Source: Escherichia phage vB_EcoM_JNE01. From it: a stretch of DNA of 64,000 nucleotides. Where the stretch lies: sequence record OR670491, one strand, 5' to 3'. This document shows positions 3,001 to 15,129 of the stretch, one piece after another. The first letter of the stretch is position 1; each line of letters opens with the position of its first letter. Made by a program: the position numbers and the translations under genes. Below the pieces are notes generated by a model. It made no database searches, was not told the DNA's origin, and saw only the letters and a list, made by a program, of their open reading frames with translations.

Positions 3001-4998
3001 AATAATGTGAGTACCGACACCATTATCAACCAACCCAGCAGCTAGACGTTCTTCGTAATCGTTGAAGTCATCAGATGAACCACTTGTAATATTCTTTTGA
3101 ATAATATCCTTGAAATGTAGGGTGTACATTCCTTGGTTGATATAAATGATATTACCGTTGTATGGGTTATTTTGTAAGTTGATTGGAATTTCATATGCAC
3201 CAAGATTCTTATCAGGAGTAATAGTACTGCTATAAGTTCTGATTTGAATAACTGAATCTTCATCTAGTGCAACAGTACTATCGATTGTAATACTTTGAAC
3301 TTGATTTTTGGACACGGTTTTGCTGAAGCTGTTGGTAACTACACCATCAACTGTTAGCTCAATAATGTCATCAGAATTATCAAGTACTTTCTGTGCCAAT
3401 TCAAATGTATGATTGTATTTTACACTTTGAACACCGTCGCCAGTGATAACGTGCCAATCAAGATATGTTTCTTTTTCTGCTTTGTAATATTGGTAAGTGC
3501 GATCCACTTCGATTACATAAGCATACATTCCATCAACTGGTGAACGGAAACTTTCTAGATCGTAAACAGTACTGAATACACGATACATGTCAGTACGGGT
3601 AACTTCTAGAGTTTGTTTAACGAACTGTTTGGAATATTCAGCAGAACGAACCCAGTCAGTTTTTAGGTGCATAGAATTGTCTTCACCGATGACGTTAAAA
3701 TAATACAAACCGTCAATCTCAACTTCTTCACCTAAATGATCATATGTATAACGTTCGGACTGTAGAAAGTTCTCATATGTATAATAGTTGTAATCACCTA
3801 ATTCGATGTTATAACCATATACACCATCAGTTGGATAGTTGTAGTTGATTTTAAATCCAAATAGAGAAGAACCTTTGAAAGTACTGGATGGATAAACGGC
3901 ACTATCGTTTAGTTTATTACCATTGCGATCATATAATTGGAATTGTGGGAAAAAGTTAACTGTAGGTTTGGCTTGTGCTTGAACCCAATGTGCACCATCC
4001 CAATACATTGAACTATTACCATAGGTATTACCTTTAGTAATTAGAACCACGTCACCTTTAATTGGTTCACCACTTGGACGGTCTTCAGTTTCTTCTTCAG
4101 GATCTAATGCTAGACCATATACGCGTGTACCATCTTGTAATTTTTTAATGTATACTTTATAAATTCGGTTATTCTCACCACTGTTACCAATACTGGTGAA
4201 GAGAATGCGTTGACCATCTTGTGGGATAATCCCGTCAATACGAATACCGGAGTTCACATCTTTTTGAACCATATCTTCTGGTTTGATGGTATCAGAGTAC
4301 AAATCAACTGTACCACGGAATTTAGTACCGTAGTTTAGAAGTTCGATATCTTTATTGAACTCGATAATAGGTGCTTTAGCACGAACGAAACGCTCATCCT
4401 GCATTAGATCTTGGGTTAGTACTGTACCATCCCCTAATGTTTCACCTAGAGTGTACCAGAAGTTTTGTAGGGACCATGTGTTGCCGTTAGTAGCATTACG
4501 TTCCATTACAACATAGTCTGGAGTTTGAATATTGTATTCGTTTTGTGTATCCCAAAGATATGAACTGTAGTTGTTCATTTTGTTTGGGTTAATAGCAGGT
4601 GTCCATGCGTAAAACTTACCAGCAAATAGGCGACTTTCATTATCAGTTAGTGCACCGTAATGATTCATGTAGCCAACGAGGTCATCATAAAATTGAATTG
4701 AACGAATACTGCGGTCATCATTTCTTGAGACGTAAGCAGTGGATAACTGATACAGTTGACGTGCAACTGTTGATTCAGCTAGGAAGATGTTACCTTCAGC
4801 GGCGGGAGAACCCATATCACCAATATAGCCGTCAACCAATTCGTTTTCAGCCGGATTAAACCATTGTTGAATGACATCATCACTTACCTTCTGAATGTCT
4901 TCTAGACCTTGCATCCATTCAGGTAATCTTTTGATGAAAAGTTTTTTCTGTACTGCTTCAGCCGTTTGTGTAGGTTGAAACTTAAAATTATTAGTCAT
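1..4998 (-). CDS. Very large virion structural protein (baseplate wedge / tail-fibre module), 3-prime truncated by window edge; more than 1660 codons in window
   Basis: Manual translation of minus strand from ATG at 4998-4996 (GGAG about 9 nt upstream) gives MTNNFKFQPTQTAEAVQKK... with no stop over the several hundred codons I translated; absent from ORF track because stop lies outside window; same operon and orientation as gp6/J-like gene. Confidence 0.6.
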   Translation of the reverse strand, partial: MTNNFKFQPTQTAEAVQKKLFIKRLPEWMQGLEDIQKVSDDVIQQWFNPAENELVDGYIGDMGSPAAEGNIFLAESTVARQLYQLSTAYVSRNDDRSIRSIQFYDDLVGYMNHYGALTDNESRLFAGKFYAWTPAINPNKMNNYSSYLWDTQNEYNIQTPDYVVMERNATNGNTWSLQNFWYTLGETLGDGTVLTQDLMQDERFVRAKAPIIEFNKDIELLNYGTKFRGTVDLYSDTIKPEDMVQKDVNSGIRIDGIIPQDGQRILFTSIGNSGENNRIYKVYIKKLQDGTRVYGLALDPEEETEDRPSGEPIKGDVVLITKGNTYGNSSMYWDGAHWVQAQAKPTVNFFPQFQLYDRNGNKLNDSAVYPSSTFKGSSLFGFKINYNYPTDGVYGYNIELGDYNYYTYENFLQSERYTYDHLGEEVEIDGLYYFNVIGEDNSMHLKTDWVRSAEYSKQFVKQTLEVTRTDMYRVFSTVYDLESFRSPVDGMYAYVIEVDRTYQYYKAEKETYLDWHVITGDGVQSVKYNHTFELAQKVLDNSDDIIELTVDGVVTNSFSKTVSKNQVQSITIDSTVALDEDSVIQIRTYSSTITPDKNLGAYEIPINLQNNPYNGNIIYINQGMYTLHFKDIIQKNITSGSSDDFNDYEERLAAGLVDNGVGTHIIQNEASMLPLMAHTANEDIDLFEAIMFMQAEYFRFINKFNTQMIRMYDEDPSGFVANSASNIVDAIFSAINMGRDSSFPFYYDNVASTSGFIRTFVPPTPQFLGILQAYAPQKATYLNPGSKSSFYNISHTGIISKSYRAINGVDKMDDVVFELESRIFDSIDNVFKDVDYQPVLSSEDLFPTPYFQTTDYTMAEKQTLLLRGYINFTATNGISNSTNAYVQSNWKTWNYTGTNYVVDGHVSDIPARGSWRAIYTDQYGTYRPATHPWEMLGFSQRPSWWNQEYEPTYVQVGERESDTVAVYEALVLNENGDYVPSGLWSVDGTIGDSSTGTILYGARKGQYDKYKRFGVQPFKITKTGSKTSTGIDICEIEYIAPEVLGLVSGSLNHRAEPWSYGDMGDMEFTYMNTAMFAYDQMLLLYKAKPAQFANYYWDTRNNSLNSVYTGQPQFLYGETRKRINFDSATVVHGENNTRTVGYQMFVSDYLAYQNKNITTKYGDVVRSSYVNVGHKIGGFTKADQLTFTAKSFGLISQENQTIGLVRSSNIRDEVISAVKITWTGSAYQIDGYDLVGAKFKYKLPVKNGKKVSLKIGTRNVAHYNEWKNESEIEYGKVFNTYQEVYTFICGYGEYLKEHGWIFEDVNDSGAQQDWNTIAKDFVTWSQSTLVSGEYISCTPSSANAKFGADFGSVQSIAQNSGGVWSLLDDQNQGIRQYEIETSRIGNVFTVRTTDDSDKRMALIRLSLCSYEHAVIFDDQTIFGDYIYQPTFGSVQELIKMYGYITGSWTGRLQAPGFIILEAGTLPSFEKLVTDFELYYNSETPVSDIQLQELSNHLIGYQTRDYLQRMIGSDANRVDFYKGFIHDKGSNQVLEKVLRVSKSYDTEEYKALQEWAFKIGTYGNVDGKKNLQFKLINDQFKQQPQLVSFDIHATSNGNGNNIVYFGEQGADPRWVTRPNGKFSFPMRSGRSENIQLPDIGPVSLDEISYITKEFSTAYDDRIQYMNK

Positions 4999-5045
4999 TG
5001 TTGGACTCCATATAATTCGTTCATTCATTTGATTTATTTATGATA

Positions 5046-5070
5046 TAAAAAAGACGTTCCGAAGAACGCC
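5046..5070 (-). terminator. Rho-independent terminator (minus strand) between gp6-like gene and giant structural gene
   Basis: Minus-strand reading GGCGTTC-TTCG-GAACGTC followed by TTTTTT; UUCG tetraloop. Confidence 0.6.
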
Positions 5071-5079
5071 TTAAATGTA

Positions 5080-8000
5080 TTAAGAACCGATATTAATATT
5101 ACTCTTCGCCAAAGAGTTAACAATTTGTACGTTATCAACGGATGCAGTACTTAGGAAGATTTGGTCAGACCTTGAAGGAATTTCAAAGAGTGAACCAAAT
5201 TTGGAGTTAGGGTTTTTAGCCACAATAACGATAGTACTGATATGTCGTCCCAATTGGGAGTGAATGTAAGTACATAAATCCGTATAATAGAAGCTTTCAC
5301 CGAAATCCCAGTTATCAACGTTAAAGTATTCATTAGTTAATGATATTACATTCTGACGTACTTCATCATCACTCATTGTACTGTTAGGTAATTTGACAAC
5401 TTTAAAGTCTGCTTGATAATCTTCAACAGCACTATTTCCGAATAGTGGTAGATACTCCGCACTATGCCAGATGATACTATCGCTGATTACAATCTTCTCT
5501 TCAACTTCTTTGAAGATATCCTTCAACTCAACAGAGGTTGGTGGCTTAGGTAGGCTACTGGTAGCTCCATTCTTCAACCATACATCAACTTCAGTTTTGT
5601 ATGAGTTGGTTAAAACATACATATCGATTAAGTTCGTTCTACTTGGGTCAATACGGTTATCATCTGGTGCATAGTGCTTCCAATGGAAGTCAACGCTAGT
5701 TCTTGCATCAGTTTTTACTGTGTATTGAGACGTTACATCTATATATCCATAGTAATCTAATTTTTGGTCATCATCAACCGCAGTTCCCATGTTATTTAAT
5801 GCACGATAAAACGCAACTTCAGGTGAAACAGCACTGGCATCATCGCTGGTTGTCATATTGGAAATTAATTGGTTCAAACGGTCGTTATTATTACCAACAG
5901 TTTGTTCAATAAAGTAATATTTACCATCTACTTTAAAAGCAACCAAGAATCCTGAACCTTTACTATACAAACCACTTAGTGTAGTTGAACGAATTTCATT
6001 GTTACGCTGGAATTCATGACGCTTATAAGAGTTAGTTTCTAGAAGTGCCTGATCTACTGTGTAAGCCCATGAAGTATCAAGTAAAGTGAAAGTATCATTT
6101 GGTAATGACAGTACTGAAATGGTAAAATCATCGTTTTCTTGGAAAACTAAGATACCACCGTATTTTAATGCATCTTCACCAGTCCATGTAGGTACGATTT
6201 CATTGAACTTATTGGGTTCCAATGGAATACCATTACTATCAACTGTTTTAGATGTAATTACAACACGAGAGCCATCCAAATACCCATTTTCTTGTTGAAT
6301 TGTATCATAGATTTGGAAATCAATGTTACTAGACAACCCAGCATTGCTGGAACTGGTTGTATTTGAAGAAAGAATCTCAATTTTATCACTTTGAACTGTA
6401 CCACTACTAATATCAGTGATTTTCTTAGATGAAACAAAGTAAAAACGAACCTTATCACCACCAACAAAGATATATTCAACGCCGTTAGCATTAAATTCCC
6501 ATGTTTCAGCAGTATATTTCACATTTACTACAACTTGTGTTGTTACACCATTGTATTGTACGGTTTCTTCATTAGTACTAATCTCGATTGGAACCCATGA
6601 AGTTGTTGCGTTATCATGGATTATAACAAAATCCGTTTTCTTGTCAAGCATTGATGCAATCGCCTGTACTTCTACACTGTTAAAACGTGTACGGTACGGA
6701 AGAATGTAAGATTGTGCTTGCATTGTAGATGAAATCGATGTACTTAGAACATAATAACCATTATCAAGTACGTTTACGATACTAGCCCATACAGTTATAC
6801 CAGTATTTGCAAACTTAATCAAGGTTCCCACTTCATAATTTCCATAAACTGTACCAGATGCACCCAAAATACGACCATATGTGTTGGTTGCGTAGTTGGA
6901 ATTGTATTCAGGTGACCATTTTTGTTGAACTTCGATACCAACAGTGTTAGCTGGATATGCCTGATAACGTTGAATCACAGCATTTTCACCAATTAGTGGC
7001 TGGATGTTATCAACTGCGATACTTGCATTGGTTTTTGTAGTCGGTAAAAGTAATGAAGTGTTGAAAGTATTGTTTTCTTTATACATTGAACCGTCATCAC
7101 TAAACACATCAGTGTTTTGGTACTTACCAGTTGGGTCATTAATGTCAATAAAGCGTGATTGACCACTGTAAATTCGGTTAATTGCTTTTGATTTTAGAAC
7201 AGTGTTACCTAAACTCAATGGAGCAATGTTATAGTCTTCGCCGTTAACGAAACGGTTTTGAGTATAGTACATTTGTGGTGCACGAGCTTTAATTTGTTCA
7301 ATAGTTTCTGCACTTTGTGCTCGGTCTGATTCGTACTGAAGTGTAAATCTAACATCGAGAGTACTGGATTCGTAATTGGATTGTGATTTAGTACGATAAT
7401 TATATTTTACACTCTTATTTTGAATTTCAGAGGTTTTGATATTATATGTTTCACCATTACTAACACGATACCAAACGCGGAATGTACCACGAGGAACTAC
7501 ACCACTACGAGAGTCAGGGAACTTAATAGTAATCTGATCATTATCACGAGTAGTTATTGCAAAGATAGTTTTAAGTTGACGGTCAACGCTGTTGTATGCA
7601 ATACTTTCCATTGAAGGAACTTTAGTCCATTTAGTACGGACAATACCATCTTCGTTAATTTCTTGAACCCAAACGTCAATTTCGTTAATGTTATCTACGT
7701 TAACGTCTTGAATTCGGTTTTCTTCTCTGACATTATACTGATAATCTTGATAAGTCAATGTACCTTGTACAAAATAAACAAAGAAACCAGTGTTTGGTGA
7801 ACTAAAACCATTACCATCGTTCTGATAAACAATGTATTTTTGTTCTTGTGGCTCTGGATGACGTTCTTCAACACCAACTGATGTAATATCAGGGTTAACA
7901 ACTTCAAACGTCATTGATTCACCGTTGACAGTTGCAGAGAATGGCATACTAGGAGCAGTCATTGGTAATGTGTTCATGCGATACAATTGGCGAGATACAC

Positions 8001-8545: not shown

Positions 8546-9310
8546 TTAATCCTTTAATATTATGTTAAAATTATCATAAAAGTACCTTTTTAGTACTGAG
8601 ATATGATCCTCATTGTATTTTATACGAAGCAAGTTAATATCATGTTCAGTACAGTACGCGTTTTTAATTTTATCATTGTGTTGAGTTTGTTTTAGTGATT
8701 CATCTCCACCCCAATGTTCTGAACATTGAAAATGCTGTTCACCATCATATTCAATACACAAATTCAAATCTTCAATATAAAAATCAAATGGTAAAGTGAA
8801 TACGTTTCGACAATCAGAAAAACGCTTTTCTTTTACATACTTCATAAAAGATAACATTTTTTCTATATCTGTTACAGCTTTTGATTGAGTTGATTCCATC
8901 ATACACTGCTCACAACCATGCCTACTAGCCAAATGATTATCAGGTCTTTGTAAAAATGACCCATGTATGGGGCATATTATGGATATATGTGTTTTGTTGT
9001 TAATATACTCCGCAGTATTGTAATCAAATTTGTTTTTAAACTTCAAATTAGCTTTTTCACGAAAATTTATAAAGTTTTTTGGACTTTTTTGACGGTTTGC
9101 ATTATATTCTTTTGAACATTTCATGCAACCTTTACCACTAGTATGATCGTTTGGTCTTTGAAGAAAAAAACCATGCTTTTCACACCCAATCCATACCTTT
9201 GTTTTTGCATTATGGTATTTAACCATACTATAATCATATCTAATTCCATGAACTCGTATTGCATTGGTCACAAATTTGTCTTTCGTTGATCTTGTGGTTG
9301 CATATTTCAT
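8546..9310 (-). CDS. Free-standing homing-endonuclease-like protein: two Zn-ribbon modules plus Vsr/DUF559-like PD-(D/E)xK nuclease domain
   Basis: Repeated C-x-x-H-G-x-F-x(7-9)-H-x(4-5)-G-C-x-x-C modules (CEKHGFF...GCMKC; CPIHGSF...GCEQC); C-terminal FDFYIED...IEYDGEQH motif typical of DUF559/Vsr-like endonuclease fold; inserted between gp25-like and gp6-like genes. Confidence 0.5.
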   Translation of the reverse strand: MKYATTRSTKDKFVTNAIRVHGIRYDYSMVKYHNAKTKVWIGCEKHGFFLQRPNDHTSGKGCMKCSKEYNANRQKSPKNFINFREKANLKFKNKFDYNTAEYINNKTHISIICPIHGSFLQRPDNHLASRHGCEQCMMESTQSKAVTDIEKMLSFMKYVKEKRFSDCRNVFTLPFDFYIEDLNLCIEYDGEQHFQCSEHWGGDESLKQTQHNDKIKNAYCTEHDINLLRIKYNEDHISVLKRYFYDNFNIILKD

Positions 9311-9379: not shown

Positions 9380-9775
9380 TTATACAGAAGATACTGAATA
9401 AGTAGCCATTCTATTATTACTTCTAGCATCAAACACAATAGTTAGTTCTTCCAATGTTTCCAGAACCACATAACCAAGTAAAATGCTCATCTGATATCCA
9501 TACTCAATTCTGGAAATTTGAAGTTCTTTTAATTCAAGACGTGGATCTAATCCAATTATTCTTCGGGCATCAGCTTCAAGAAGGTTGATTGTATTGTAAC
9601 CATCCAGTTCGAATAGTAAATCCCATGCAATAAACCCGTAGTCAGCATCAAATGCCCTTTCGCCTTTCTTTGTATTAAAATGATTAATAAGGTCTTGACG
9701 TACCAATTCACTATCGTATAATGTTTGTGTTTTCCCTACTACTGGAGTAGAGAATCCTTTAAAAACTATAGCCAT
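9380..9775 (-). CDS. Baseplate wedge protein gp25 / gpW-like
   Basis: RAFDADYGFIAWDLLFE region parallels T4 gp25 RPFDPEFGCDLSDQLFE; size 131 aa; genomic context. Confidence 0.65.
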   Translation of the reverse strand: MAIVFKGFSTPVVGKTQTLYDSELVRQDLINHFNTKKGERAFDADYGFIAWDLLFELDGYNTINLLEADARRIIGLDPRLELKELQISRIEYGYQMSILLGYVVLETLEELTIVFDARSNNRMATYSVSSV

Positions 9776-9788
9776 AGTGATTCCTTAA

Positions 9789-10277
9789 TTAGACGGACTC
9801 GACAATACGTGCCATTTGTTCCGCTCTGGATGTGGTTTGCTTATACCATGTACTATCACGCATTTCTTTACCAGCAGTTTTATAATCACCACGACCGAGA
9901 GCAGCCATAGCTTTTTTGAAGTTTAAAACTTTTGATTTGCCCATTTGGAAAACCATCAACCACAATACACGTTGTACTTTAACTGGTGCGGTCATACCGA
10001 ATTGGTCATAAATTGATTTAGCGTCATTGTACGCGGATTGAGCATCTTTAATTAATAGAGCATCAGCTTCTGCTTCGGTTAGACCAGATTTGAAATTTTC
10101 ACCAGGACGAACCAAGTGACCATAACCAATTGTATCTAAACCGAGGCTGTCTTTATACACCCAAAATTTGTCATTCTTAAAATAACCCAATTTCTTTTGA
10201 TAAGCAATTGTACCTTCAAATTCTTTAACTTCTTTGAAAAATTGCTCGTCTGTGTTTTTAATTTCCCATTTACTCAT
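9789..10277 (-). CDS. T4-type lysozyme (GH24 muramidase), probable endolysin
   Basis: Motifs TIGYGHL, MVFQMG, WYKQT..RAE match T4 lysozyme catalytic core; 162 aa; own late-type promoter and RBS AGAGGA upstream. Confidence 0.85.
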   Translation of the reverse strand: MSKWEIKNTDEQFFKEVKEFEGTIAYQKKLGYFKNDKFWVYKDSLGLDTIGYGHLVRPGENFKSGLTEAEADALLIKDAQSAYNDAKSIYDQFGMTAPVKVQRVLWLMVFQMGKSKVLNFKKAMAALGRGDYKTAGKEMRDSTWYKQTTSRAEQMARIVESV

Positions 10278-10294
10278 AAAGATTTCCTCTTAAT

Positions 10295-10302
10295 TATTTA
10301 TA
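10295..10302 (-). promoter_or_regulatory. T4-type late promoter element TATAAATA (minus strand) upstream of lysozyme gene
   Basis: Minus-strand TATAAATA about 17 nt upstream of ATG, followed by RBS AGAGGA. Confidence 0.5.
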
Positions 10303-10315
10303 GAAGTAAAAATAT

Positions 10316-12979
10316 TTATTGGCAAGCCTCAATTCGACGTGCCATTAATTCTGCACGACGTGTGGTTTGTCTGTACCAAGCAGAGTTACGGATTTGTGCA
10401 GCAGCTTGCTTGTAATCACCTTTAGCTAGACAACTAAGCATAGTTTTAAATTTAAGAACACCACCTTTACCCATCTGGAATACCATTTGACATAGAACTT
10501 GCTGTGCCATATATGGCGTTTTCATGTTATAAGATGCATAAATTGATTTAGCATCATTAATCGCTTTAGTACTGTCCCTTACAAGCATATCGTTTGCTTC
10601 TTGTTCAGTAATGCCGCCGCTGAAATTTTCACCGCTGATAATCAAGTGTCCATAACCTATAGTTGGGAATCCACGACTATCTATATATCTCCAGAATTTA
10701 CCATTACGGAAATATCCTTTCGCTGCTTGATATTGTTGAGTACCTTCATATTCTTTCAATTCAGATGTAAATTGAGCATCACCAGGTACAACTTTCCAAT
10801 CAATTGCCGTTTTATCAACGGTTCCAACATTATATGATTCTTGCTGTGATGCAGCAGGAGCAGAAGTAGTTCGTTGTGTTCTTCTACGTCTAGGAACATG
10901 ACGAGAACCACGTTGTGAATAACCCGTACCGATAGTTTTGATTTTAGTTGATACAACCAATTCATCACTATCAACTGAAGGTTGAACTACTGCTTTTGGT
11001 GCGGCTTGGTTTGTTGCCTGACCTGCAATTAAGGTTTTATTTGCTGCATCAGAACCAGTACCAGTTTGTGAAGCATAGAATAACCCTGGGTCAACAGAAC
11101 CACTGAAACCGTACACACTTGATGATGTAACACGAATCTCAAACATAATGACACCATTTGCTGTACCGATTTTTTGTCCTTTTTGTACAACATCTTTATT
11201 CATCAAATCAGATTTGATATTAAAGAATACAGATTTGTATCCAGACTTATGCTGAATCAACAGTCCACCATTGGTTGCTGCGACAACACCGCCATCAGGG
11301 GCAACAATATCACCTCTGCATTGGATTTCCCAACCACTACTATCAACTTTACCACCACCTGCGACTGGTACGTTTTTACCCCAGTAACCATTCTGACGAA
11401 TAGTACCGCTACATGGCATAAACATATGCAAACCTTCATATGTAATCGTATATCCGGTCATACCAGGATCAGAAGTCATTAAATCTTCGGATTGAACTGA
11501 TTCTGTTTCTTGTGTATAGTTAATAAATTGTACTGCTTCTGTATCTTGTGCTTCTGCTAGTTCAGGAGCTACGTCATTAGCTGGTTGTGGCTGTACTGGT
11601 GCAGTAGTTGATGATCTACCACCACCTTGATATGGAGGCTCAACAGTACTTCCATGATTTTCTGCATCAACCCAGTTAGAAATGTTATGAATATGGTCAT
11701 TTAATCCAGCAGAAGGTGTTTTAAAATCAGGAGCAGAGAACATTGCAGTACCAGTATTACCTGCACTATCAACAGTTAAGTTCTGACCACCACCACTGAT
11801 GTTTACAGATGAACCACCTATTACGTTTGCACTGCTTGAACCTTTAATAGATGCAGATGAGCCAGCAGTGATATCAGTACTGCTACCACTTTGTAAACGT
11901 AGAGAAGCGGCTGTTACTAGACGTAAATCTGCACCAGAGTTCAATACAATTTGACCACCTACTTTTGCATCCAAATTACCAATTAAATCTAATTTAGTTT
12001 TACCACCAATTCGGGCATTTAGGTCTTGTCCACTCTCTATATTATAAGAACGTCCTGCAACCATGTTAATATCTTGACCAGCACGAATGTTAATGTTCTT
12101 ATCACAGTGCATGTCAATATCACCGTCACCTGAGAATCTAATACGTGCAGTACCGTCACGGTTAATCAATAGAACGTCTCCAGTGGCTTCAGAAAGCAAC
12201 AATTGAGCACCACTGCGTGTCTTTATGACTACACCTTCATTCTTACGAGAACCAACTCTGGTGTCGTTTACGGGGTTATTAAATTGTGTATCCTGGTAAC
12301 CATCTGGATCATCATCCCAAGATGGAGCAGTTAATTCTTCTTCAGTGTATCCATCATCAATAATAAAACTATTCCCGCGTGGTGATGACATACCATAGAC
12401 AGTACTGGTAGTTTGTCGAGTACTGCTGCGGTTTGCTACGCCTGCTTCTTCATCATATAGCAAGTTTTGCTTTTTAAGACCTGCGATGATAGGCACGTTT
12501 GCATATTTTTCTTGTGTAGTTGATGAAAGTGTGTTACGGTCATAGTCAGTTACTGGTAATGGCATATCAGTACCACCATAGTTACTTACTTCGGTAGCCA
12601 TACCAGGAACCATAGTGTTCATTCGTTGATCATAAACACACCCAATCCAGTATGCTTGGAATGTACGAGCCTGTGCAAATATAACAACCACAGTACAACC
12701 AACATCTGGAGGTACAGCCCAAAAACCATACCCTTTAGGGAACTGACCATAAGCTTCCGCACTTGGAATGCCTGGTGTTTTCCCTGCGAATGGAGACATG
12801 TAAGATGCTTCAATCCATGACTCCTTCGAGTTCTTGTCACTTTGTGAACCCTGAATCCATACTTTCAGTTTTCCTGATTTGGTAGGGTCACGGTTATCCA
12901 TTACTGTTGCCAGTTGTGGATAAGAAGGGTCGAAACGACCCAACTGTTGTTGTGCATACTTCTTACTAGTATCTGCCAT
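10316..12979 (-). CDS. Baseplate central spike gp5-like protein with beta-helix, degenerate M23/LytM-like region and C-terminal T4-type lysozyme domain
   Basis: N-terminus DNRDPTKSGKLKVWIQG resembles gp5 OB domain (DPTLKGRVKVRVHG); Gly/Ser-rich beta-helix-like repeats mid-protein; C-terminal 160 aa carry TIGYGHL / MVFQMG / WYRQT lysozyme motifs and are paralogous to the adjacent 162-aa lysozyme. Confidence 0.75.
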   Translation of the reverse strand: MADTSKKYAQQQLGRFDPSYPQLATVMDNRDPTKSGKLKVWIQGSQSDKNSKESWIEASYMSPFAGKTPGIPSAEAYGQFPKGYGFWAVPPDVGCTVVVIFAQARTFQAYWIGCVYDQRMNTMVPGMATEVSNYGGTDMPLPVTDYDRNTLSSTTQEKYANVPIIAGLKKQNLLYDEEAGVANRSSTRQTTSTVYGMSSPRGNSFIIDDGYTEEELTAPSWDDDPDGYQDTQFNNPVNDTRVGSRKNEGVVIKTRSGAQLLLSEATGDVLLINRDGTARIRFSGDGDIDMHCDKNINIRAGQDINMVAGRSYNIESGQDLNARIGGKTKLDLIGNLDAKVGGQIVLNSGADLRLVTAASLRLQSGSSTDITAGSSASIKGSSSANVIGGSSVNISGGGQNLTVDSAGNTGTAMFSAPDFKTPSAGLNDHIHNISNWVDAENHGSTVEPPYQGGGRSSTTAPVQPQPANDVAPELAEAQDTEAVQFINYTQETESVQSEDLMTSDPGMTGYTITYEGLHMFMPCSGTIRQNGYWGKNVPVAGGGKVDSSGWEIQCRGDIVAPDGGVVAATNGGLLIQHKSGYKSVFFNIKSDLMNKDVVQKGQKIGTANGVIMFEIRVTSSSVYGFSGSVDPGLFYASQTGTGSDAANKTLIAGQATNQAAPKAVVQPSVDSDELVVSTKIKTIGTGYSQRGSRHVPRRRRTQRTTSAPAASQQESYNVGTVDKTAIDWKVVPGDAQFTSELKEYEGTQQYQAAKGYFRNGKFWRYIDSRGFPTIGYGHLIISGENFSGGITEQEANDMLVRDSTKAINDAKSIYASYNMKTPYMAQQVLCQMVFQMGKGGVLKFKTMLSCLAKGDYKQAAAQIRNSAWYRQTTRRAELMARRIEACQ

Positions 12980-12990
12980 TTTAAATTTCC

Positions 12991-15129
12991 TTATTCGATT
13001 ATACTATCATGTCGCTTCAATGCACGAATAACGATAGCGGCTTGTATTTGTTGTGTGAAAGAGCCACCTGCACCAAAATCATGAACAATCTTATTAATTC
13101 GATAGATAGTTTGGTTAAATGTAGTTGGAGTTGTGATATCCAATACACCAGTATTATCATTGATAGATACAACTGGTTGCAATTTCAATAAAAGATAAGC
13201 TTCGGATGTTATATAGTTTGCAACGTGGTAATCTTCTGGATTTATTTCCATATCTTCACCATTGATAACTTGTTCAAGATATTGGAGATAAGAATAGTCA
13301 CTCCAGCCAATCCAGAATGGGTCACCAACAACTTTCATATCTAATTTACACAAGAATGGTCTATTATAATAGTTGTCACGTATTTTACGTCTATCCATTT
13401 CATATGTGCTACTGTTATCGTTAAGAGATGCAGATAGTGTTGTTTCATTATTCGTTGCTTCGGTTGGCATAGTGAATATTTCACCATTTCTGTGACCAAT
13501 ACCATCAGTACCGGAGTCACTTGAATCATATGTAGTTACATAGTCTTCAATATAATCAGGTAATACGTTAACTTGATAGTTATTAAGTCTGTCTTGTTCA
13601 TCAGATGCACCAACTTGCATGATATTCTTAGCTGCGTTCTCAACTTTATCCAATAATTCCTGCTGTGCTTGTGTAATCATACCACCAACACTCTTAGTTG
13701 CACGAATATCCTTTGTTGCAGCCCATGCTTCGGGTATACTATTGTACTGAACACCTTGAATATTCAATTCTTGTGATGCGTGAGTGCCCTGATGGTTCGC
13801 TACATCTTGGATTGGGCCTGGGTTGCGAGTAGTTGCAACAAAAAATTGCTGATCGAACTTCAAGTCCAAATCCAATACTTCTGTGTTTAAACCAGAGAAT
13901 TGATAATTATAAGTTTTCATGTTTATTTTTGGTTTATTGTCATTTGGGTCAACATATTTCTCTGCGTTCTCAAAAAAGTACTCAAATGTGAAGTTTTCTG
14001 GTTGCAAATCGTTCTCATGAACGACATCACCAATTTTAAATCTCACAATATAGAAAACGACCTTATAAACTGATGTGTTACGATAATTATCGAACCCTAC
14101 ATATTGTTTAACCGGAATAATGTTAACAAATTGACGTACACTGGTACTTTCATCAGCCCTTACTGTGCATGTATCAATAACATCATCGATAATACGAGAT
14201 ATTGGTGTACTTGGGTTCCATGAGAAGTTTTTAGAACCCTGACTTCCACTCTTTGTCGCACCAGTTTCTGCCATTTGCTTTGAATCATAGTTAATTATCA
14301 AATCTTGTAGGTCTGGTGCGACTTTAAACTCAAAGAACTTACCTTCAGATAGTTCACTGAATTTATAACGCAAGTAACCGTATTGCTGATCAGCCATTTG
14401 ATTCAATTTGTCTTCAATATCAAAACAAAAATCACCAAAGTTCTCTGCTACACAGGTGAATGGTTCTTTTAAAGTCCATTCCACGTTATCTACAAGGGCC
14501 GCACGGTTGTGTACTAACGATAATGTGTACAGCATAGTACTTCCACTCTCAGATGCACTTGCTGCAACACTGTTAATCTTAACAGACCATTTACGGGTAG
14601 TGTCTGGAATTACTTCTGGACGACCATCAGCATTAAAACCTATAAATTTCAATTCTAATATCAAAGGTAAGTCCATAAATTTATGGTAACGTAATTTATT
14701 ACTTAAAGAAATTAGTTCATCATACAAACTCATACTATTGTTTTCAGATATCTTCATTACTGCGGTGTTGAAGCAGTAGTTAGTAGTCATGCCAGGTGTT
14801 GATGGTCCTGCTTGCGTCATCTGAACACTTGTGATATTATACTTACCAGTTACACCACTTTCCGATATAACATGACGTTGAACTTCAGCATTTGGCAAGA
14901 GCCAGAAGTTTTTGAAGTCATCTTTATCAAGTGCAAACAAAGAAAAGTGCCATGTTGGGTTGTCATACTTAAGAAGCTTGTTCTCATAAGGTATAACGAA
15001 CTCCGACAAGTCCAAATCTTCATACACTTGGTCAACACTAGTGTTTTGTTTAGGAAGTGATTGCAAATTACTTACTTGTGCTTTATAATTGTTCTTAAGG
15101 TTTGATGCCATACCTTTAATGTCTGCCAT
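12991..15129 (-). CDS. Baseplate structural protein (hub candidate, gp27/gpD position)
   Basis: 712-aa ORF directly upstream of gp5-like spike in same operon; no motif-level match verified. Confidence 0.35.
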   Translation of the reverse strand: MADIKGMASNLKNNYKAQVSNLQSLPKQNTSVDQVYEDLDLSEFVIPYENKLLKYDNPTWHFSLFALDKDDFKNFWLLPNAEVQRHVISESGVTGKYNITSVQMTQAGPSTPGMTTNYCFNTAVMKISENNSMSLYDELISLSNKLRYHKFMDLPLILELKFIGFNADGRPEVIPDTTRKWSVKINSVAASASESGSTMLYTLSLVHNRAALVDNVEWTLKEPFTCVAENFGDFCFDIEDKLNQMADQQYGYLRYKFSELSEGKFFEFKVAPDLQDLIINYDSKQMAETGATKSGSQGSKNFSWNPSTPISRIIDDVIDTCTVRADESTSVRQFVNIIPVKQYVGFDNYRNTSVYKVVFYIVRFKIGDVVHENDLQPENFTFEYFFENAEKYVDPNDNKPKINMKTYNYQFSGLNTEVLDLDLKFDQQFFVATTRNPGPIQDVANHQGTHASQELNIQGVQYNSIPEAWAATKDIRATKSVGGMITQAQQELLDKVENAAKNIMQVGASDEQDRLNNYQVNVLPDYIEDYVTTYDSSDSGTDGIGHRNGEIFTMPTEATNNETTLSASLNDNSSTYEMDRRKIRDNYYNRPFLCKLDMKVVGDPFWIGWSDYSYLQYLEQVINGEDMEINPEDYHVANYITSEAYLLLKLQPVVSINDNTGVLDITTPTTFNQTIYRINKIVHDFGAGGSFTQQIQAAIVIRALKRHDSIIE

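What the first reader, a model, noticed from the sequence alone, without database searches (positions are those of the whole stretch)
9789..12979. Adjacent paralogous T4-type lysozyme modules and an atypical gp5-like spike architecture
The spike protein carries its lysozyme domain at the extreme C-terminus, after an OB domain, a Gly/Ser-rich beta-helix-like region and a region with M23/LytM-like spacing but apparently lacking the HxH catalytic signature. In T4 gp5 the lysozyme is in the middle. Immediately downstream a free-standing lysozyme paralog shares the same motifs and has its own late promoter. This suggests a recent duplication, fission or fusion, and possibly dual cell-wall-degrading activities in the spike.
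Basis: partly seen in the sequence, partly recalled or inferred. Interest (0 to 1): 0.5.

Follow-up and report, generated by a model that had tools for sequence, protein, structure and literature searches.

The report
Jumbo-phage tail spike plus spare lysozyme
This is the cell-puncturing tail spike of a RaK2/121Q-type giant E. coli phage, carrying a lysozyme at its far end and followed by an old free-standing copy of that lysozyme; the arrangement is real but was already described for this phage group in 2013 and 2017.

Summary
ORF 10316-12979(-) is an 887-aa central spike and ORF 9789-10277(-) is a 162-aa T4-type lysozyme, 53% identical to the spike's last 160 residues. Domain order in the spike: OB fold, conserved insert, VgrG-like beta-helix, conserved HxH apex-like motif, linker, M23/LytM-like block, linker, GH24 lysozyme.

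The window is an Asteriusvirus-like jumbo phage (98% to phage Turkey5). This architecture, the paralogy, the weak M23 hit and a late promoter before the free gene were all published for RaK2 (2013) and CBB (2017). The free-lysozyme ortholog LysUE1 was shown to be muralytic (2025).

- The duplication is ancient, not recent. Free copies are monophyletic (98-99% bootstrap) across at least five genera. Nucleotide identity is 58% and dS is saturated. Both copies are under purifying selection.
- A Vibrio outgroup has only the spike copy, so the free gene most likely arose from the spike's 3' module.
- The M23-like block has lost every zinc ligand in all relatives, so dual enzymatic activity is unlikely.

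The role of the free lysozyme, probably a soluble late lysozyme that is not in the virion, remains inferred.

The parts
10316..12979 (-). Central baseplate spike gene, 887 aa plus stop
   Evidence: ORF. [quoted passage not shown] Orthologs were detected in virions of CBB and phAPEC6.
12632..12913 (-). OB-fold domain (residues 23-116) that docks the spike in the hub
   Evidence: Pfam Phage_base_V, 29.6 bits against cut-off 23.8. Aligns with the OB region of VgrG1.
12188..12631 (-). Conserved insert between OB fold and beta-helix (residues 117-264), no family match
   Evidence: Many invariant columns across 10 spikes, including PA5oct, SCTP-2 and RsoM2USA. No Pfam or PDB hit. It occupies the topological position of the lysozyme insertion in T4 gp5.
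11750..12187 (-). Gly/Ser-rich triple beta-helix (residues about 265-410), VgrG-like
   Evidence: Pfam DUF2345, 30.0 bits. A profile of 10 spikes hits P. aeruginosa VgrG1 4uhv at E 9e-9, better than T4-type gp5 at E 5e-3.
11630..11749 (-). Apex-like segment (residues 411-450) with conserved HxH (H429-I-H431, nt 11687-11695)
   Evidence: The only HxH in the protein. It is conserved at the same place in RaK2, Munch, CBB and the Vibrio phage. HxH directly after the helix is the published signature of the Fe-binding apex of gpV-type spikes. Metal binding is inferred, not shown.
11465..11629 (-). Linker 1 (residues 451-505), Gly/Ser/Pro/Gln-rich and poorly conserved
   Evidence: Alignment. The short spikes of PA5oct and SCTP-2 end at the position equivalent to about residue 450.
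11060..11464 (-). Degenerate LytM/M23-like domain (residues about 506-640), predicted non-catalytic
   Evidence: Pfam M23 scores are below threshold: 19.7 bits here and 25.8 bits in RaK2. A profile hits LasA, DipM, zoocin A, SpoIIQ and TagE at E 3e-4 to 5e-3. hhalign against canonical M23 gives E 1.8e-4. All metal-ligand positions are substituted in all relatives.
10805..11059 (-). Linker 2 (residues 641-725), containing the conserved motif ELVVSTKIKTIGTGYSQRGSRHVPRRRR (residues 673-700, nt 10880-10963)
   Evidence: Alignment. The motif is nearly invariant in the enterobacterial phages. Its function is unknown.
10319..10804 (-). C-terminal GH24 (T4-type) lysozyme module of the spike (residues 726-887)
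   Evidence: Pfam Phage_lysozyme, 43 bits. Best PDB matches are the T4 gp5 lysozyme domain at E 1e-12. Equivalents of T4L E11/D20/T26 are conserved. dN/dS against 121Q is 0.069.
10278..10319 (-). Spike-lysozyme gap with two late-promoter-like elements (ATAAATA 10313-10319, TATAAATA 10295-10302) and a Shine-Dalgarno AGAGGA (10285-10290)
   Evidence: Sequence. TATAAATA is conserved in Turkey5, 121Q and RaK2; ATAAATA at the stop codon is conserved in Munch, Yen9-04, GAP32 and CBB. Positional enrichment. CBB supplementary Table S7 lists Porf_239 at the same place. Promoter activity has not been shown.
9789..10277 (-). Free-standing 162-aa GH24 lysozyme, an ancient paralog of the spike module
   Evidence: 53% identity to spike residues 728-886. 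Catalytic triad conserved. dN/dS against 121Q is 0.063. The ortholog LysUE1, reported as 96.3% similar to the 121Q protein, is muralytic in vitro. Not detected in virion MS of Rak2-like phages.
9380..9775 (-). gp25-like baseplate wedge gene (context: shows that the free lysozyme sits inside the baseplate operon)
   Evidence: Pfam GPW_gp25, 31.1 bits; phrog_43.

Best explanation
The region encodes the central cell-puncturing spike of an Asteriusvirus-type (RaK2-like) jumbo myovirus, followed by an old free-standing copy of the spike's lysozyme module.

The spike core (residues 1 to about 450) is an OB fold, a conserved insert, a VgrG-like triple beta-helix and an HxH apex-like clamp. This core is what the shorter spikes of related jumbo phages consist of. 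Tethered to it by a flexible linker is about 430 residues of C-terminal cargo: a LytM/M23-fold domain that has lost all metal ligands, then a catalytically intact GH24 lysozyme.

Inferred mechanism:
- Sheath contraction drives the trimeric spike through the outer membrane.
- The three tethered lysozymes then cut glycan strands locally so that the tube can pass.
- The dead LytM domain acts as a peptidoglycan-binding, positioning or regulatory module rather than as a second enzyme.

The downstream 162-aa gene arose by duplication of the spike's 3' module in the ancestor of the enterobacterial RaK2-like phages and has been kept under purifying selection since. It has its own late-promoter-like element and a strong ribosome-binding site. 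It has no signal or transmembrane segment and is absent from published virion proteomes. It is most likely made in excess late in infection as a soluble muramidase, in the way T4 gene e relates to T4 gp5, alongside the separate SAR-type endolysin of these phages.

Shown here: the domain content, the paralogy, the age and direction of the duplication, the loss of M23 ligands and the motif conservation. Shown elsewhere: muralytic activity of the free ortholog and virion presence of the spike. Inferred: Fe binding, the role of the dead LytM domain, and the in vivo role of the free lysozyme.
For: - Identity of the phage and conservation of the gene pair in Asteriusvirus, Alcyoneusvirus, Eneladusvirus, Mimasvirus and Munch-like phages.
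- Domains.
- Paralogy.
- Ancient duplication: free copies monophyletic 199/200 and 98/100; clade of free plus enterobacterial spike modules 180/200 and 71-98/100; nucleotide identity 58%; dS 2.7.
- The Vibrio outgroup has a single GH24 locus.
- Purifying selection and intact catalytic triads in both copies.
- M23 ligands lost in all nine relatives. The top structural relatives include the non-catalytic LytM proteins DipM and SpoIIQ.
- HxH conserved directly after the helix, and its meaning in gpV-type spikes.
- The short spikes of PA5oct, SCTP-2 and RsoM2USA end where the cargo begins here; Atu_ph07 and Xoo-sp13 carry other cargo (trypsin-like, SLT-like).
- Promoter-like motifs.
- Literature: RaK2 2013; CBB 2017, including a separate SAR endolysin and the statement that only the spike and the gp25-like protein were confirmed in virions; phAPEC6 virion MS; LysUE1 activity.
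- T4 precedent: gp5 lysozyme domain versus gene e lysozyme, 43% identity.
Against: - No structure is available. Single-sequence AlphaFold2 of the middle region failed with pLDDT 30.6, and relatives could not be used as an alignment. The M23 fold therefore rests on sub-threshold sequence and profile matches only.
[quoted passage not shown] Its absence from virion MS is negative evidence for a small protein that may be present in low copy number. The spike itself was missed in RaK2 virions.
- Whether the cargo stays attached in the virion is unknown: MS coverage of the spike was only 4-10%.
- The basal position of the Vibrio module could be a long-branch effect, and monophyly of the enterobacterial spike modules is weak with p-distances (42-53%).
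Confidence: 0.7

Rival explanations
1. One reading: a recent duplication, fission or fusion produced the two lysozymes, and the spike carries two active wall-degrading enzymes (M23 peptidase and lysozyme).
For: The genes are adjacent and co-linear over the full module. There is a weak M23 match.
Against: - Free copies are monophyletic across at least five genera and mirror the phage tree.
- Nucleotide identity is 58%, the longest exact run is 16 nt and dS is saturated.
- All M23 metal ligands are replaced in every relative.
Confidence: 0.04
2. The free 162-aa lysozyme is a structural, low-copy component of the baseplate or tail, for example an extra wall-cutting subunit assembled next to the spike, rather than a soluble enzyme.
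For: The gene lies between the spike and gp25-like genes in the late baseplate operon, and that synteny is conserved. Even in RaK2, where 1.8 kb is inserted, it remains just upstream of the gp25-like gene. Public annotations call it a baseplate hub subunit.
Against: It was not detected in the virion proteomes summarised for the Rak2-like phages or in phAPEC6, whose MS table jumps from gp241 to gp244. Having its own promoter-like element and a strong SD suggests expression above spike stoichiometry.
Confidence: 0.2
3. The C-terminal cargo is cut off during assembly, by analogy with the maturation cleavage of T4 gp5, perhaps at the conserved SQRGSRHVPRR motif. In that case the virion would carry a non-covalently held lysozyme and a bare HxH-tipped spike.
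For: - The HxH apex signature normally ends a spike protein.
- The motif at residues 673-700 is highly conserved and basic, inside an otherwise variable linker.
- T4 gp5 is known to be processed (established knowledge of T4 gp5*/gp5C).
Against: There is no evidence of processing. The RaK2 authors reported that the virion proteins they identified ran at their predicted masses, although the spike was not among them. No protease site is known for this motif, and the Vibrio phage lacks the motif.
Confidence: 0.12
4. The free lysozyme is the phage's main endolysin.
For: Turkey5 annotates it as an endolysin. Its ortholog LysUE1 lyses permeabilised E. coli. It has a late-promoter-like element.
Against: These phages encode a separate membrane-tethered (SAR-type) lysozyme elsewhere that was predicted to be the endolysin: CBB_187, 121Q gp532 and RaK2 gp506. 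No holin or spanin gene lies next to the free lysozyme; its neighbours are baseplate genes.
Confidence: 0.15

Closest known systems
RaK2 gp078/gp073, CBB_240/CBB_239 and 121Q gp587/gp586 (published RaK2-like jumbo phage spike and adjacent lysozyme)
   Same: Orthologous genes with the same lengths (886-894 aa and 162 aa), the same domain order and the same neighbours. The unusual architecture, the similarity between the two lysozymes, the weak central M23 hit and a late promoter before the free gene are all already in print. The UE-S1 ortholog of the free gene has been purified and is active.
   Different: This window is a different isolate: 98% nucleotide identity to Turkey5 and about 81% to 121Q. 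The papers did not date the duplication, did not note that the M23 block has lost its ligands, and did not note the HxH motif.
T4 gp5 (tail lysozyme / central spike) together with T4 gene e lysozyme
   Same: An OB fold, a GH24 lysozyme and a triple beta-helix in one spike protein, plus a free paralogous lysozyme in the same genome. T4 gp5 lysozyme versus e is 43% identical; the pair here is 53% identical. The spike module here is closer to the gp5 lysozyme domain than to T4L.
   Different: - In T4 the lysozyme is inserted between the OB fold and the helix, and the helix ends the protein. Here the helix is central and the lysozyme is at the far C-terminus, after an M23-like domain.
- In T4 the two genes are far apart; here they are adjacent.
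- Only the lysozyme region aligns with gp5 by BLAST.
P2 gpV / phi92 gp138-type spikes with an Fe-loaded HxH apex
   Same: OB fold, beta-helix and a conserved HxH directly after the helix.
   Different: In gpV-type spikes the apex is the C-terminal end. Here 456 more residues follow it. Iron binding was not tested.
'Evolved' T6SS VgrG spikes with C-terminal effector domains, such as those carrying peptidoglycan hydrolase extensions
   Same: The beta-helix is most similar to VgrG1 (E 9e-9). Enzymatic cargo is appended after the helix.
   Different: There is no fused gp27-like N-terminal domain: the protein starts with the OB fold. It is a phage virion protein, not a secretion-system component.
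[quoted passage not shown]
   Same: A structurally characterised central spike whose C-terminal end carries a putative wall-polymer-degrading enzyme beyond the OB/beta core.
   Different: The cargo is different (a GlpQ-like phosphodiesterase) and so is the tether (a coiled coil). The host is Gram-positive and there is no sequence relationship.
Non-catalytic LytM-domain proteins (DipM, SpoIIQ; also EnvC and NlpD from my own knowledge)
   Same: M23-fold similarity together with loss of the zinc ligands. DipM and SpoIIQ are among the best structural-database matches.
   Different: Those are bacterial regulators or scaffolds of cell-wall enzymes. Here the domain sits on a phage spike, and nothing shows that it binds or activates any enzyme.

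Membership tests
GH24 / T4-type lysozyme (Pfam PF00959) | Sequence match above the curated threshold | tested here: met
   Spike module 43.0 bits and free protein 38.1 bits, against a cut-off of 22.3. PDB matches to the gp5 lysozyme domain at E 1e-12 and to T4L at E 5e-9.
GH24 / T4-type lysozyme (Pfam PF00959) | Catalytic residues equivalent to T4L Glu11, Asp20 and Thr26 | tested here: met
   E/D/T are present in both window modules and in 16 of the 17 modules compared. The Munch spike module has Thr replaced by Asp.
GH24 / T4-type lysozyme (Pfam PF00959) | Muralytic activity | not testable with these tools
   The ortholog LysUE1 of phage UE-S1 is active on permeabilised E. coli (PMC12805682). 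The spike module has never been assayed.
T4 gp5-type tail lysozyme spike | N-terminal OB fold | tested here: met
   Phage_base_V at residues 23-116, 29.6 bits against a cut-off of 23.8.
T4 gp5-type tail lysozyme spike | Lysozyme domain inserted between the OB fold and the beta-helix | tested here: not met
   The lysozyme is at residues 726-887, after the helix at about 265-410. T4 gp5 has it at residues 174-339.
T4 gp5-type tail lysozyme spike | The beta-helix forms the C-terminal end and is capped by a separate PAAR tip protein | tested here: not met
   The helix is central and is followed by an HxH motif and 456 more residues. I did not search for a PAAR gene.
T4 gp5-type tail lysozyme spike | Maturation cleavage into gp5* and gp5C | not testable with these tools
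   Needs virion protein analysis. Published MS coverage is 4-10%.
P2 gpV-type spike with Fe apex | Conserved HxH directly after the beta-helix | tested here: met
   H429-I-H431 is the only HxH in the protein. It is conserved in RaK2, Munch, CBB and the Vibrio phage.
P2 gpV-type spike with Fe apex | The apex lies at the C-terminus of the protein | tested here: not met
   456 residues follow the motif.
P2 gpV-type spike with Fe apex | Bound iron in a six-histidine cage of the trimer | not testable with these tools
   Needs a trimer structure or metal analysis.
Peptidase M23 (LytM/lysostaphin type) | Sequence match above the curated threshold | tested here: not met
   19.7 bits here, 25.8 bits in RaK2 and 19.7 bits in the Vibrio phage, against a cut-off of 28.7. 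Fold-level similarity is supported by profile hits to at least eight M23-fold structures at E 3e-4 to 5e-3 and by hhalign at E 1.8e-4 with probability 49%.
Peptidase M23 (LytM/lysostaphin type) | Zinc ligands and catalytic histidines (HxxxD, HxH, and the His of the Y-x-H motif) | tested here: not met
   HxH aligns with V-I-M, V-I-Q, I-L-K, V-F-D, V-F-E and S-W-L in the relatives. The Y-M-H position reads F-F-N, F-Y-G or F-Y-D. The first-motif region (GWEIQ, GWTIQ, GWIIQ) has neither the His nor a conserved Asp.
Evolved T6SS VgrG | Fused gp27-like N-terminal domain | tested here: not met
   The protein begins with the OB fold at residue 23. The VgrG1 alignment starts at VgrG residue 418.
Evolved T6SS VgrG | VgrG-type beta-helix followed by a C-terminal effector | tested here: met
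   Profile hit to VgrG1 4uhv at E 9e-9. DUF2345 scores 30.0 bits against a cut-off of 30.7.

The most novel reading that the evidence does not exclude
The spike may be a hybrid that has not been described structurally. In this reading, a gpV-type iron-clamped apex sits in the middle of the polypeptide and the chain continues into a tethered cargo. The catalytically dead LytM domain of that cargo would work like bacterial LytM factors (EnvC, NlpD, DipM): it would bind or activate host peptidoglycan amidases, or gate the adjacent lysozyme, at the point of entry. More broadly, the C-terminal cargo slot of spikes in this jumbo-phage superclade (GH24, SLT, trypsin-like or none) would be a swappable effector position analogous to evolved VgrGs, with a free copy of an enzyme often encoded just downstream.
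Probability: 0.1. Interest if true: 0.6.

Novelty: already known. Interest (0 to 1): 0.2.

Why it matters
As a discovery it matters little. The gene pair, the odd domain order and the weak M23 hit are published for RaK2 and CBB, and the free enzyme's ortholog has been purified.

This analysis does correct two points:
- Annotation of the free gene as a 'baseplate hub subunit' is unsupported.
- The M23-like block should not be counted as a second enzyme.

It also leaves a modest open structural question: how a spike with an apex-type HxH motif accommodates about 430 residues of C-terminal cargo, and what a dead LytM domain does there. That is relevant to how giant myoviruses cross the Gram-negative wall and to engineering spike-borne enzymes.

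Tried and rejected
1. The search for homologous proteins with spike residues 405-725 returned no hit at E <= 1e-3, although the frame was correct and GenBank holds 72 full-length relatives. I therefore had no deep alignment and did not repeat the search.
3. Single-sequence AlphaFold2 of residues 495-725 gave mean pLDDT 30.6. The model is unusable, so I ran no fold search on it.
4. The 712-aa upstream protein, a possible hub, has no Pfam or PDB sequence match.
5. MAFFT alignment of the M23-like block with canonical M23 domains misplaced the first motif, and my labels were scrambled by duplicate record names. I used only the C-terminal motif mapping, which hhalign reproduced, and the HMMER alignment to DipM.
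6. The ungapped dN/dS for the RaK2 free copy was invalid because of a one-codon offset. I redid it with a protein-guided codon alignment.
7. I recalled that the phage 812 central spike carries an M23-like domain. The paper shows a phosphodiesterase-like petal domain instead, so I dropped that claim.
8. The raw TATAAATA count is not above chance. Only its placement is informative.
9. No supplementary MS peptide data are held for phAPEC6. No Asteriusvirus baseplate structure, and no report of an M23 domain on a jumbo-phage central spike, was found in the paper library.

Full report
**What is there**

The minus strand carries an 887-aa ORF (10316-12979) and, 38 nt downstream, a 162-aa ORF (9789-10277). 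A gp25-like baseplate gene follows at 9380-9775.

Pfam places four matches on the large protein:
- an OB-fold Phage_base_V domain at residues 23-116
- a DUF2345/VgrG-type helix match at 278-330
- a sub-threshold Peptidase_M23 match at 557-607 (19.7 bits against a cut-off of 28.7)
- a clear Phage_lysozyme domain at 765-882

The small protein is a Phage_lysozyme. BLASTP aligns spike residues 728-886 with residues 4-162 of the small protein without gaps, at 53% identity and E 2e-58. These are the only two GH24 loci in the window.

**Where it comes from**

The region is 98% identical at nucleotide level to Escherichia phage Turkey5 and about 81% identical to 121Q, PBECO4 and some 30 other Asteriusvirus genomes of 320-385 kb.

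The non-lysozyme part of the spike is found full-length in 72 phage records. These include Klebsiella RaK2 and K64-1, Salmonella Munch, Yersinia fHe-Yen9-04, Serratia BF, Erwinia phages, Cronobacter GAP32, Pectobacterium CBB and a Vibrio phage.

The order spike, free lysozyme, gp25-like, gp6-like is conserved in 121Q, Yen9-04, Munch, GAP32, CBB and Turkey5. In RaK2 four small ORFs are inserted between the spike and the free lysozyme. The Vibrio phage has the spike followed directly by the gp25-like gene.

**Already published**

[quoted passage not shown] [with] a very unusual domain composition' compared with T4 gp5.
- The CBB paper (2017) describes CBB_238, 239 and 240 as gp25-like, T4-type lysozyme, and a spike with an N-terminal gp5 OB domain, a C-terminal lysozyme and a possible central M23 domain.
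- The same paper notes the difference from gp5, states that only 238 and 240 were confirmed in virions, and assigns the endolysin role to a separate membrane-anchored lysozyme: CBB_187, 121Q gp532 and RaK2 gp506.
- Its supplementary promoter table lists Porf_239, ATAAATACTTATAC, in front of the free lysozyme.
- phAPEC6 virion MS found the 95.9-kDa spike but not its neighbours.
- The UE-S1 ortholog of the free lysozyme (LysUE1, 162 aa) was purified and lyses EDTA-permeabilised E. coli.

**Age and direction of the duplication**

I aligned the last 162 residues of nine spikes with eight free lysozymes and T4 lysozyme.
- The free copies form one clade in 199 of 200 bootstraps. With the T4 gp5 lysozyme domain added as a second outgroup, the figure is 98 of 100 under both distance models.
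- Inside both the free clade and the spike clade the branching follows the phage genera.
- Identity between spike and free module within one phage (40-62%) is no higher than between phages.
- In this window the two modules are 58.2% identical in DNA and 46% at third codon positions, with a longest exact run of 16 nt, dN 0.45 and dS 2.7.

The duplication therefore predates the split of at least five genera.

On direction:
- The Vibrio spike module falls outside the clade of free plus enterobacterial spike modules in 180 of 200 bootstraps, and in 71-98 of 100 in the second analysis.
- All spike modules together are monophyletic in at most 1% of bootstraps.
- The Vibrio record holds only one GH24 locus.

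The simplest history is a copy of the spike's 3' module that acquired its own start codon in the enterobacterial lineage. Long-branch attraction of the Vibrio module is a caveat.

Both copies are functional by evolutionary criteria. dN/dS against 121Q is 0.063 for the free copy and 0.069 for the spike module, and the equivalents of T4L Glu11, Asp20 and Thr26 are conserved.

**The M23-like block**

- A profile of this block from seven phages hits M23-fold structures: elastinolytic metalloprotease, LasA, DipM, zoocin A, SpoIIQ and TagE at E 3e-4 to 5e-3, with further M23 peptidases more weakly.
- hhalign against a small canonical M23 alignment gives E 1.8e-4 but only 49% probability. The RaK2 protein scores 25.8 bits in Pfam.
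- The fold assignment is therefore reasonable but rests on sub-threshold matches.
- The catalytic machinery is gone. The position of H-x-H reads VIM, VIQ, ILK, VFD, VFE and SWL in the relatives. The Y-x-H histidine reads N, G or D. The first-motif region (GWEIQ, GWTIQ, GWIIQ) has no His and no conserved Asp.

This is a degenerate LytM domain, so a second enzymatic activity is unlikely.

**The core of the spike**

- A profile of residues 1-470 from ten phages matches T6SS VgrG1 best (E 9e-9), ahead of T4-type gp5 at E 5e-3.
- About 150 conserved residues (117-264) with no database match lie between the OB fold and the helix, at the topological place where T4 gp5 carries its lysozyme.
- Directly after the helix lies the only HxH of the protein (LNDHIHNIS, residues 429-431). 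It is conserved in RaK2, Munch, CBB and the Vibrio phage.
- In gpV-type spikes such an HxH forms the iron-binding histidine cage of the apex and is used to recognise apex domains, but there it lies at the C-terminus.
- The related shorter spikes of PA5oct (477 aa), SCTP-2 (476 aa) and RsoM2USA (375 aa) stop about where the linker begins here. Atu_ph07 carries a trypsin-like domain. Xoo-sp13 carries an SLT-like domain and is followed by a free M23 peptidase gene.

The spike is thus a conserved core with an exchangeable C-terminal cargo. This resembles evolved VgrGs and, structurally, the enzyme-tipped central spike of phage 812.

**The promoter**

The gap contains ATAAATA overlapping the spike stop codon, and TATAAATA 17 nt before the ATG, followed by AGAGGA.
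- TATAAATA is conserved in Turkey5, 121Q and RaK2. In RaK2 it moved with the displaced gene.
- The stop-codon ATAAATA is conserved in Munch, Yen9-04, GAP32 and CBB.
- The total TATAAATA count is at chance level.
- 5 of 6 TATAAATA and 16 of 22 ATAAATA sites lie within 60 nt upstream of a same-strand start, against about 3% expected. AT-rich intergenic sequence makes this test lenient.
- A gp55-like late sigma factor gene lies nearby in 121Q.

The element is credible, but transcription from it has not been shown.

**Verdict**

The finding is real and ordinary for this phage group. The 'recent' dating is wrong and 'dual activity' is improbable.

The most likely working model is a spike that delivers three tethered lysozymes into the periplasm, plus a separately expressed soluble paralog, analogous to the T4 gp5 and gene e pair, which are 43% identical.

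Three things remain open: whether the cargo stays attached in the virion, what the dead LytM domain and the conserved motif at residues 673-700 do, and what the free lysozyme contributes in vivo.

Noticed in passing
window 8546-9310 (-): An HNH/homing-endonuclease-like gene (phrog_559, 194 bits; Pfam DUF723 and a treble-clef zinc finger) sits between the gp25-like and gp6-like baseplate genes. 121Q has it at the same place, annotated 'protein associated with group I intron'. Turkey5, which is 98% identical here, lacks it: its gp25-like and gp6-like genes are about 100 nt apart. This looks like a mobile insertion polymorphism.
   Followed up: partly
L003 (RaK2) 5662-7445: In RaK2 about 1.8 kb holding four small hypothetical ORFs, two on each strand, is inserted between the spike and the free lysozyme. 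A TATAAATA still precedes the lysozyme gene, 42 nt upstream.
   Followed up: partly
L012 (Xoo-sp13) 3899-7649; L009 (Atu_ph07) 3968-7390: Distant jumbo-phage spikes with the same OB and helix core carry other C-terminal cargo, and a free wall enzyme is encoded just downstream. Xoo-sp13 has an SLT_3 domain on the spike and then a free M23 peptidase with an intact HLH motif. Atu_ph07 has a trypsin-like domain on the spike and, two genes later, a 'phage tail lysozyme 2' protein.
   Followed up: partly
window 10880-10963 (-), spike residues 673-700: The strongly conserved basic motif ELVVxT..IGxxYSQRGSRHVPRR lies in the otherwise variable linker between the LytM-like and lysozyme domains. It is absent from the Vibrio phage. 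Its function is unknown; it could be a docking strand or a processing site.
   Followed up: no
window 12188-12631 (-), spike residues 117-264: A conserved stretch of about 150 residues between the OB fold and the beta-helix is shared even with the short spikes of PA5oct, SCTP-2 and RsoM2USA. It has no Pfam or PDB match and occupies the position where T4 gp5 has its lysozyme.
   Followed up: no
L008 (PA5oct), L010 (SCTP-2) and L009 (Atu_ph07) spike C-terminal regions: Spikes that lack HxH share a different short motif near the end of the core: FEPCPEH, HEPCPDH and HEPFDQH. It lines up roughly with VEPPY at residues 446-450 here and may be an alternative tip or metal site.
   Followed up: no
L004 (Munch) 5185-5670: The spike lysozyme module of Salmonella phage Munch sits on a long branch (35-54% identity to the other spike modules). 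Its Thr26-equivalent is replaced by Asp, and it has a 4-residue insertion. Its free copy is ordinary.
   Followed up: no
window 12991-15129 (-): The 712-aa virion protein encoded just upstream of the spike (phrog_11190, 'virion structural protein') has no Pfam or PDB sequence match. By position it could be the hub (gp27 analogue), but nothing tested here shows that.
   Followed up: partly
window-wide, e.g. 9337, 16219, 20867, 22735, 23380, 28646, 29308, 30518, 33267, 33613, 40615, 43287, 48327, 58875: ATAAATA sites lie 9-55 nt upstream of same-strand gene starts: 16 of the 22 sites in the window. This is consistent with a T4-like late promoter used across the structural region.
   Followed up: partly
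spike residues 405-725 (window 10805-11767): The 5.8-billion-protein search returned no hit at all for a region that has 72 full-length relatives in GenBank phage records. That collection seems not to contain, or not to index, this family.
   Followed up: no
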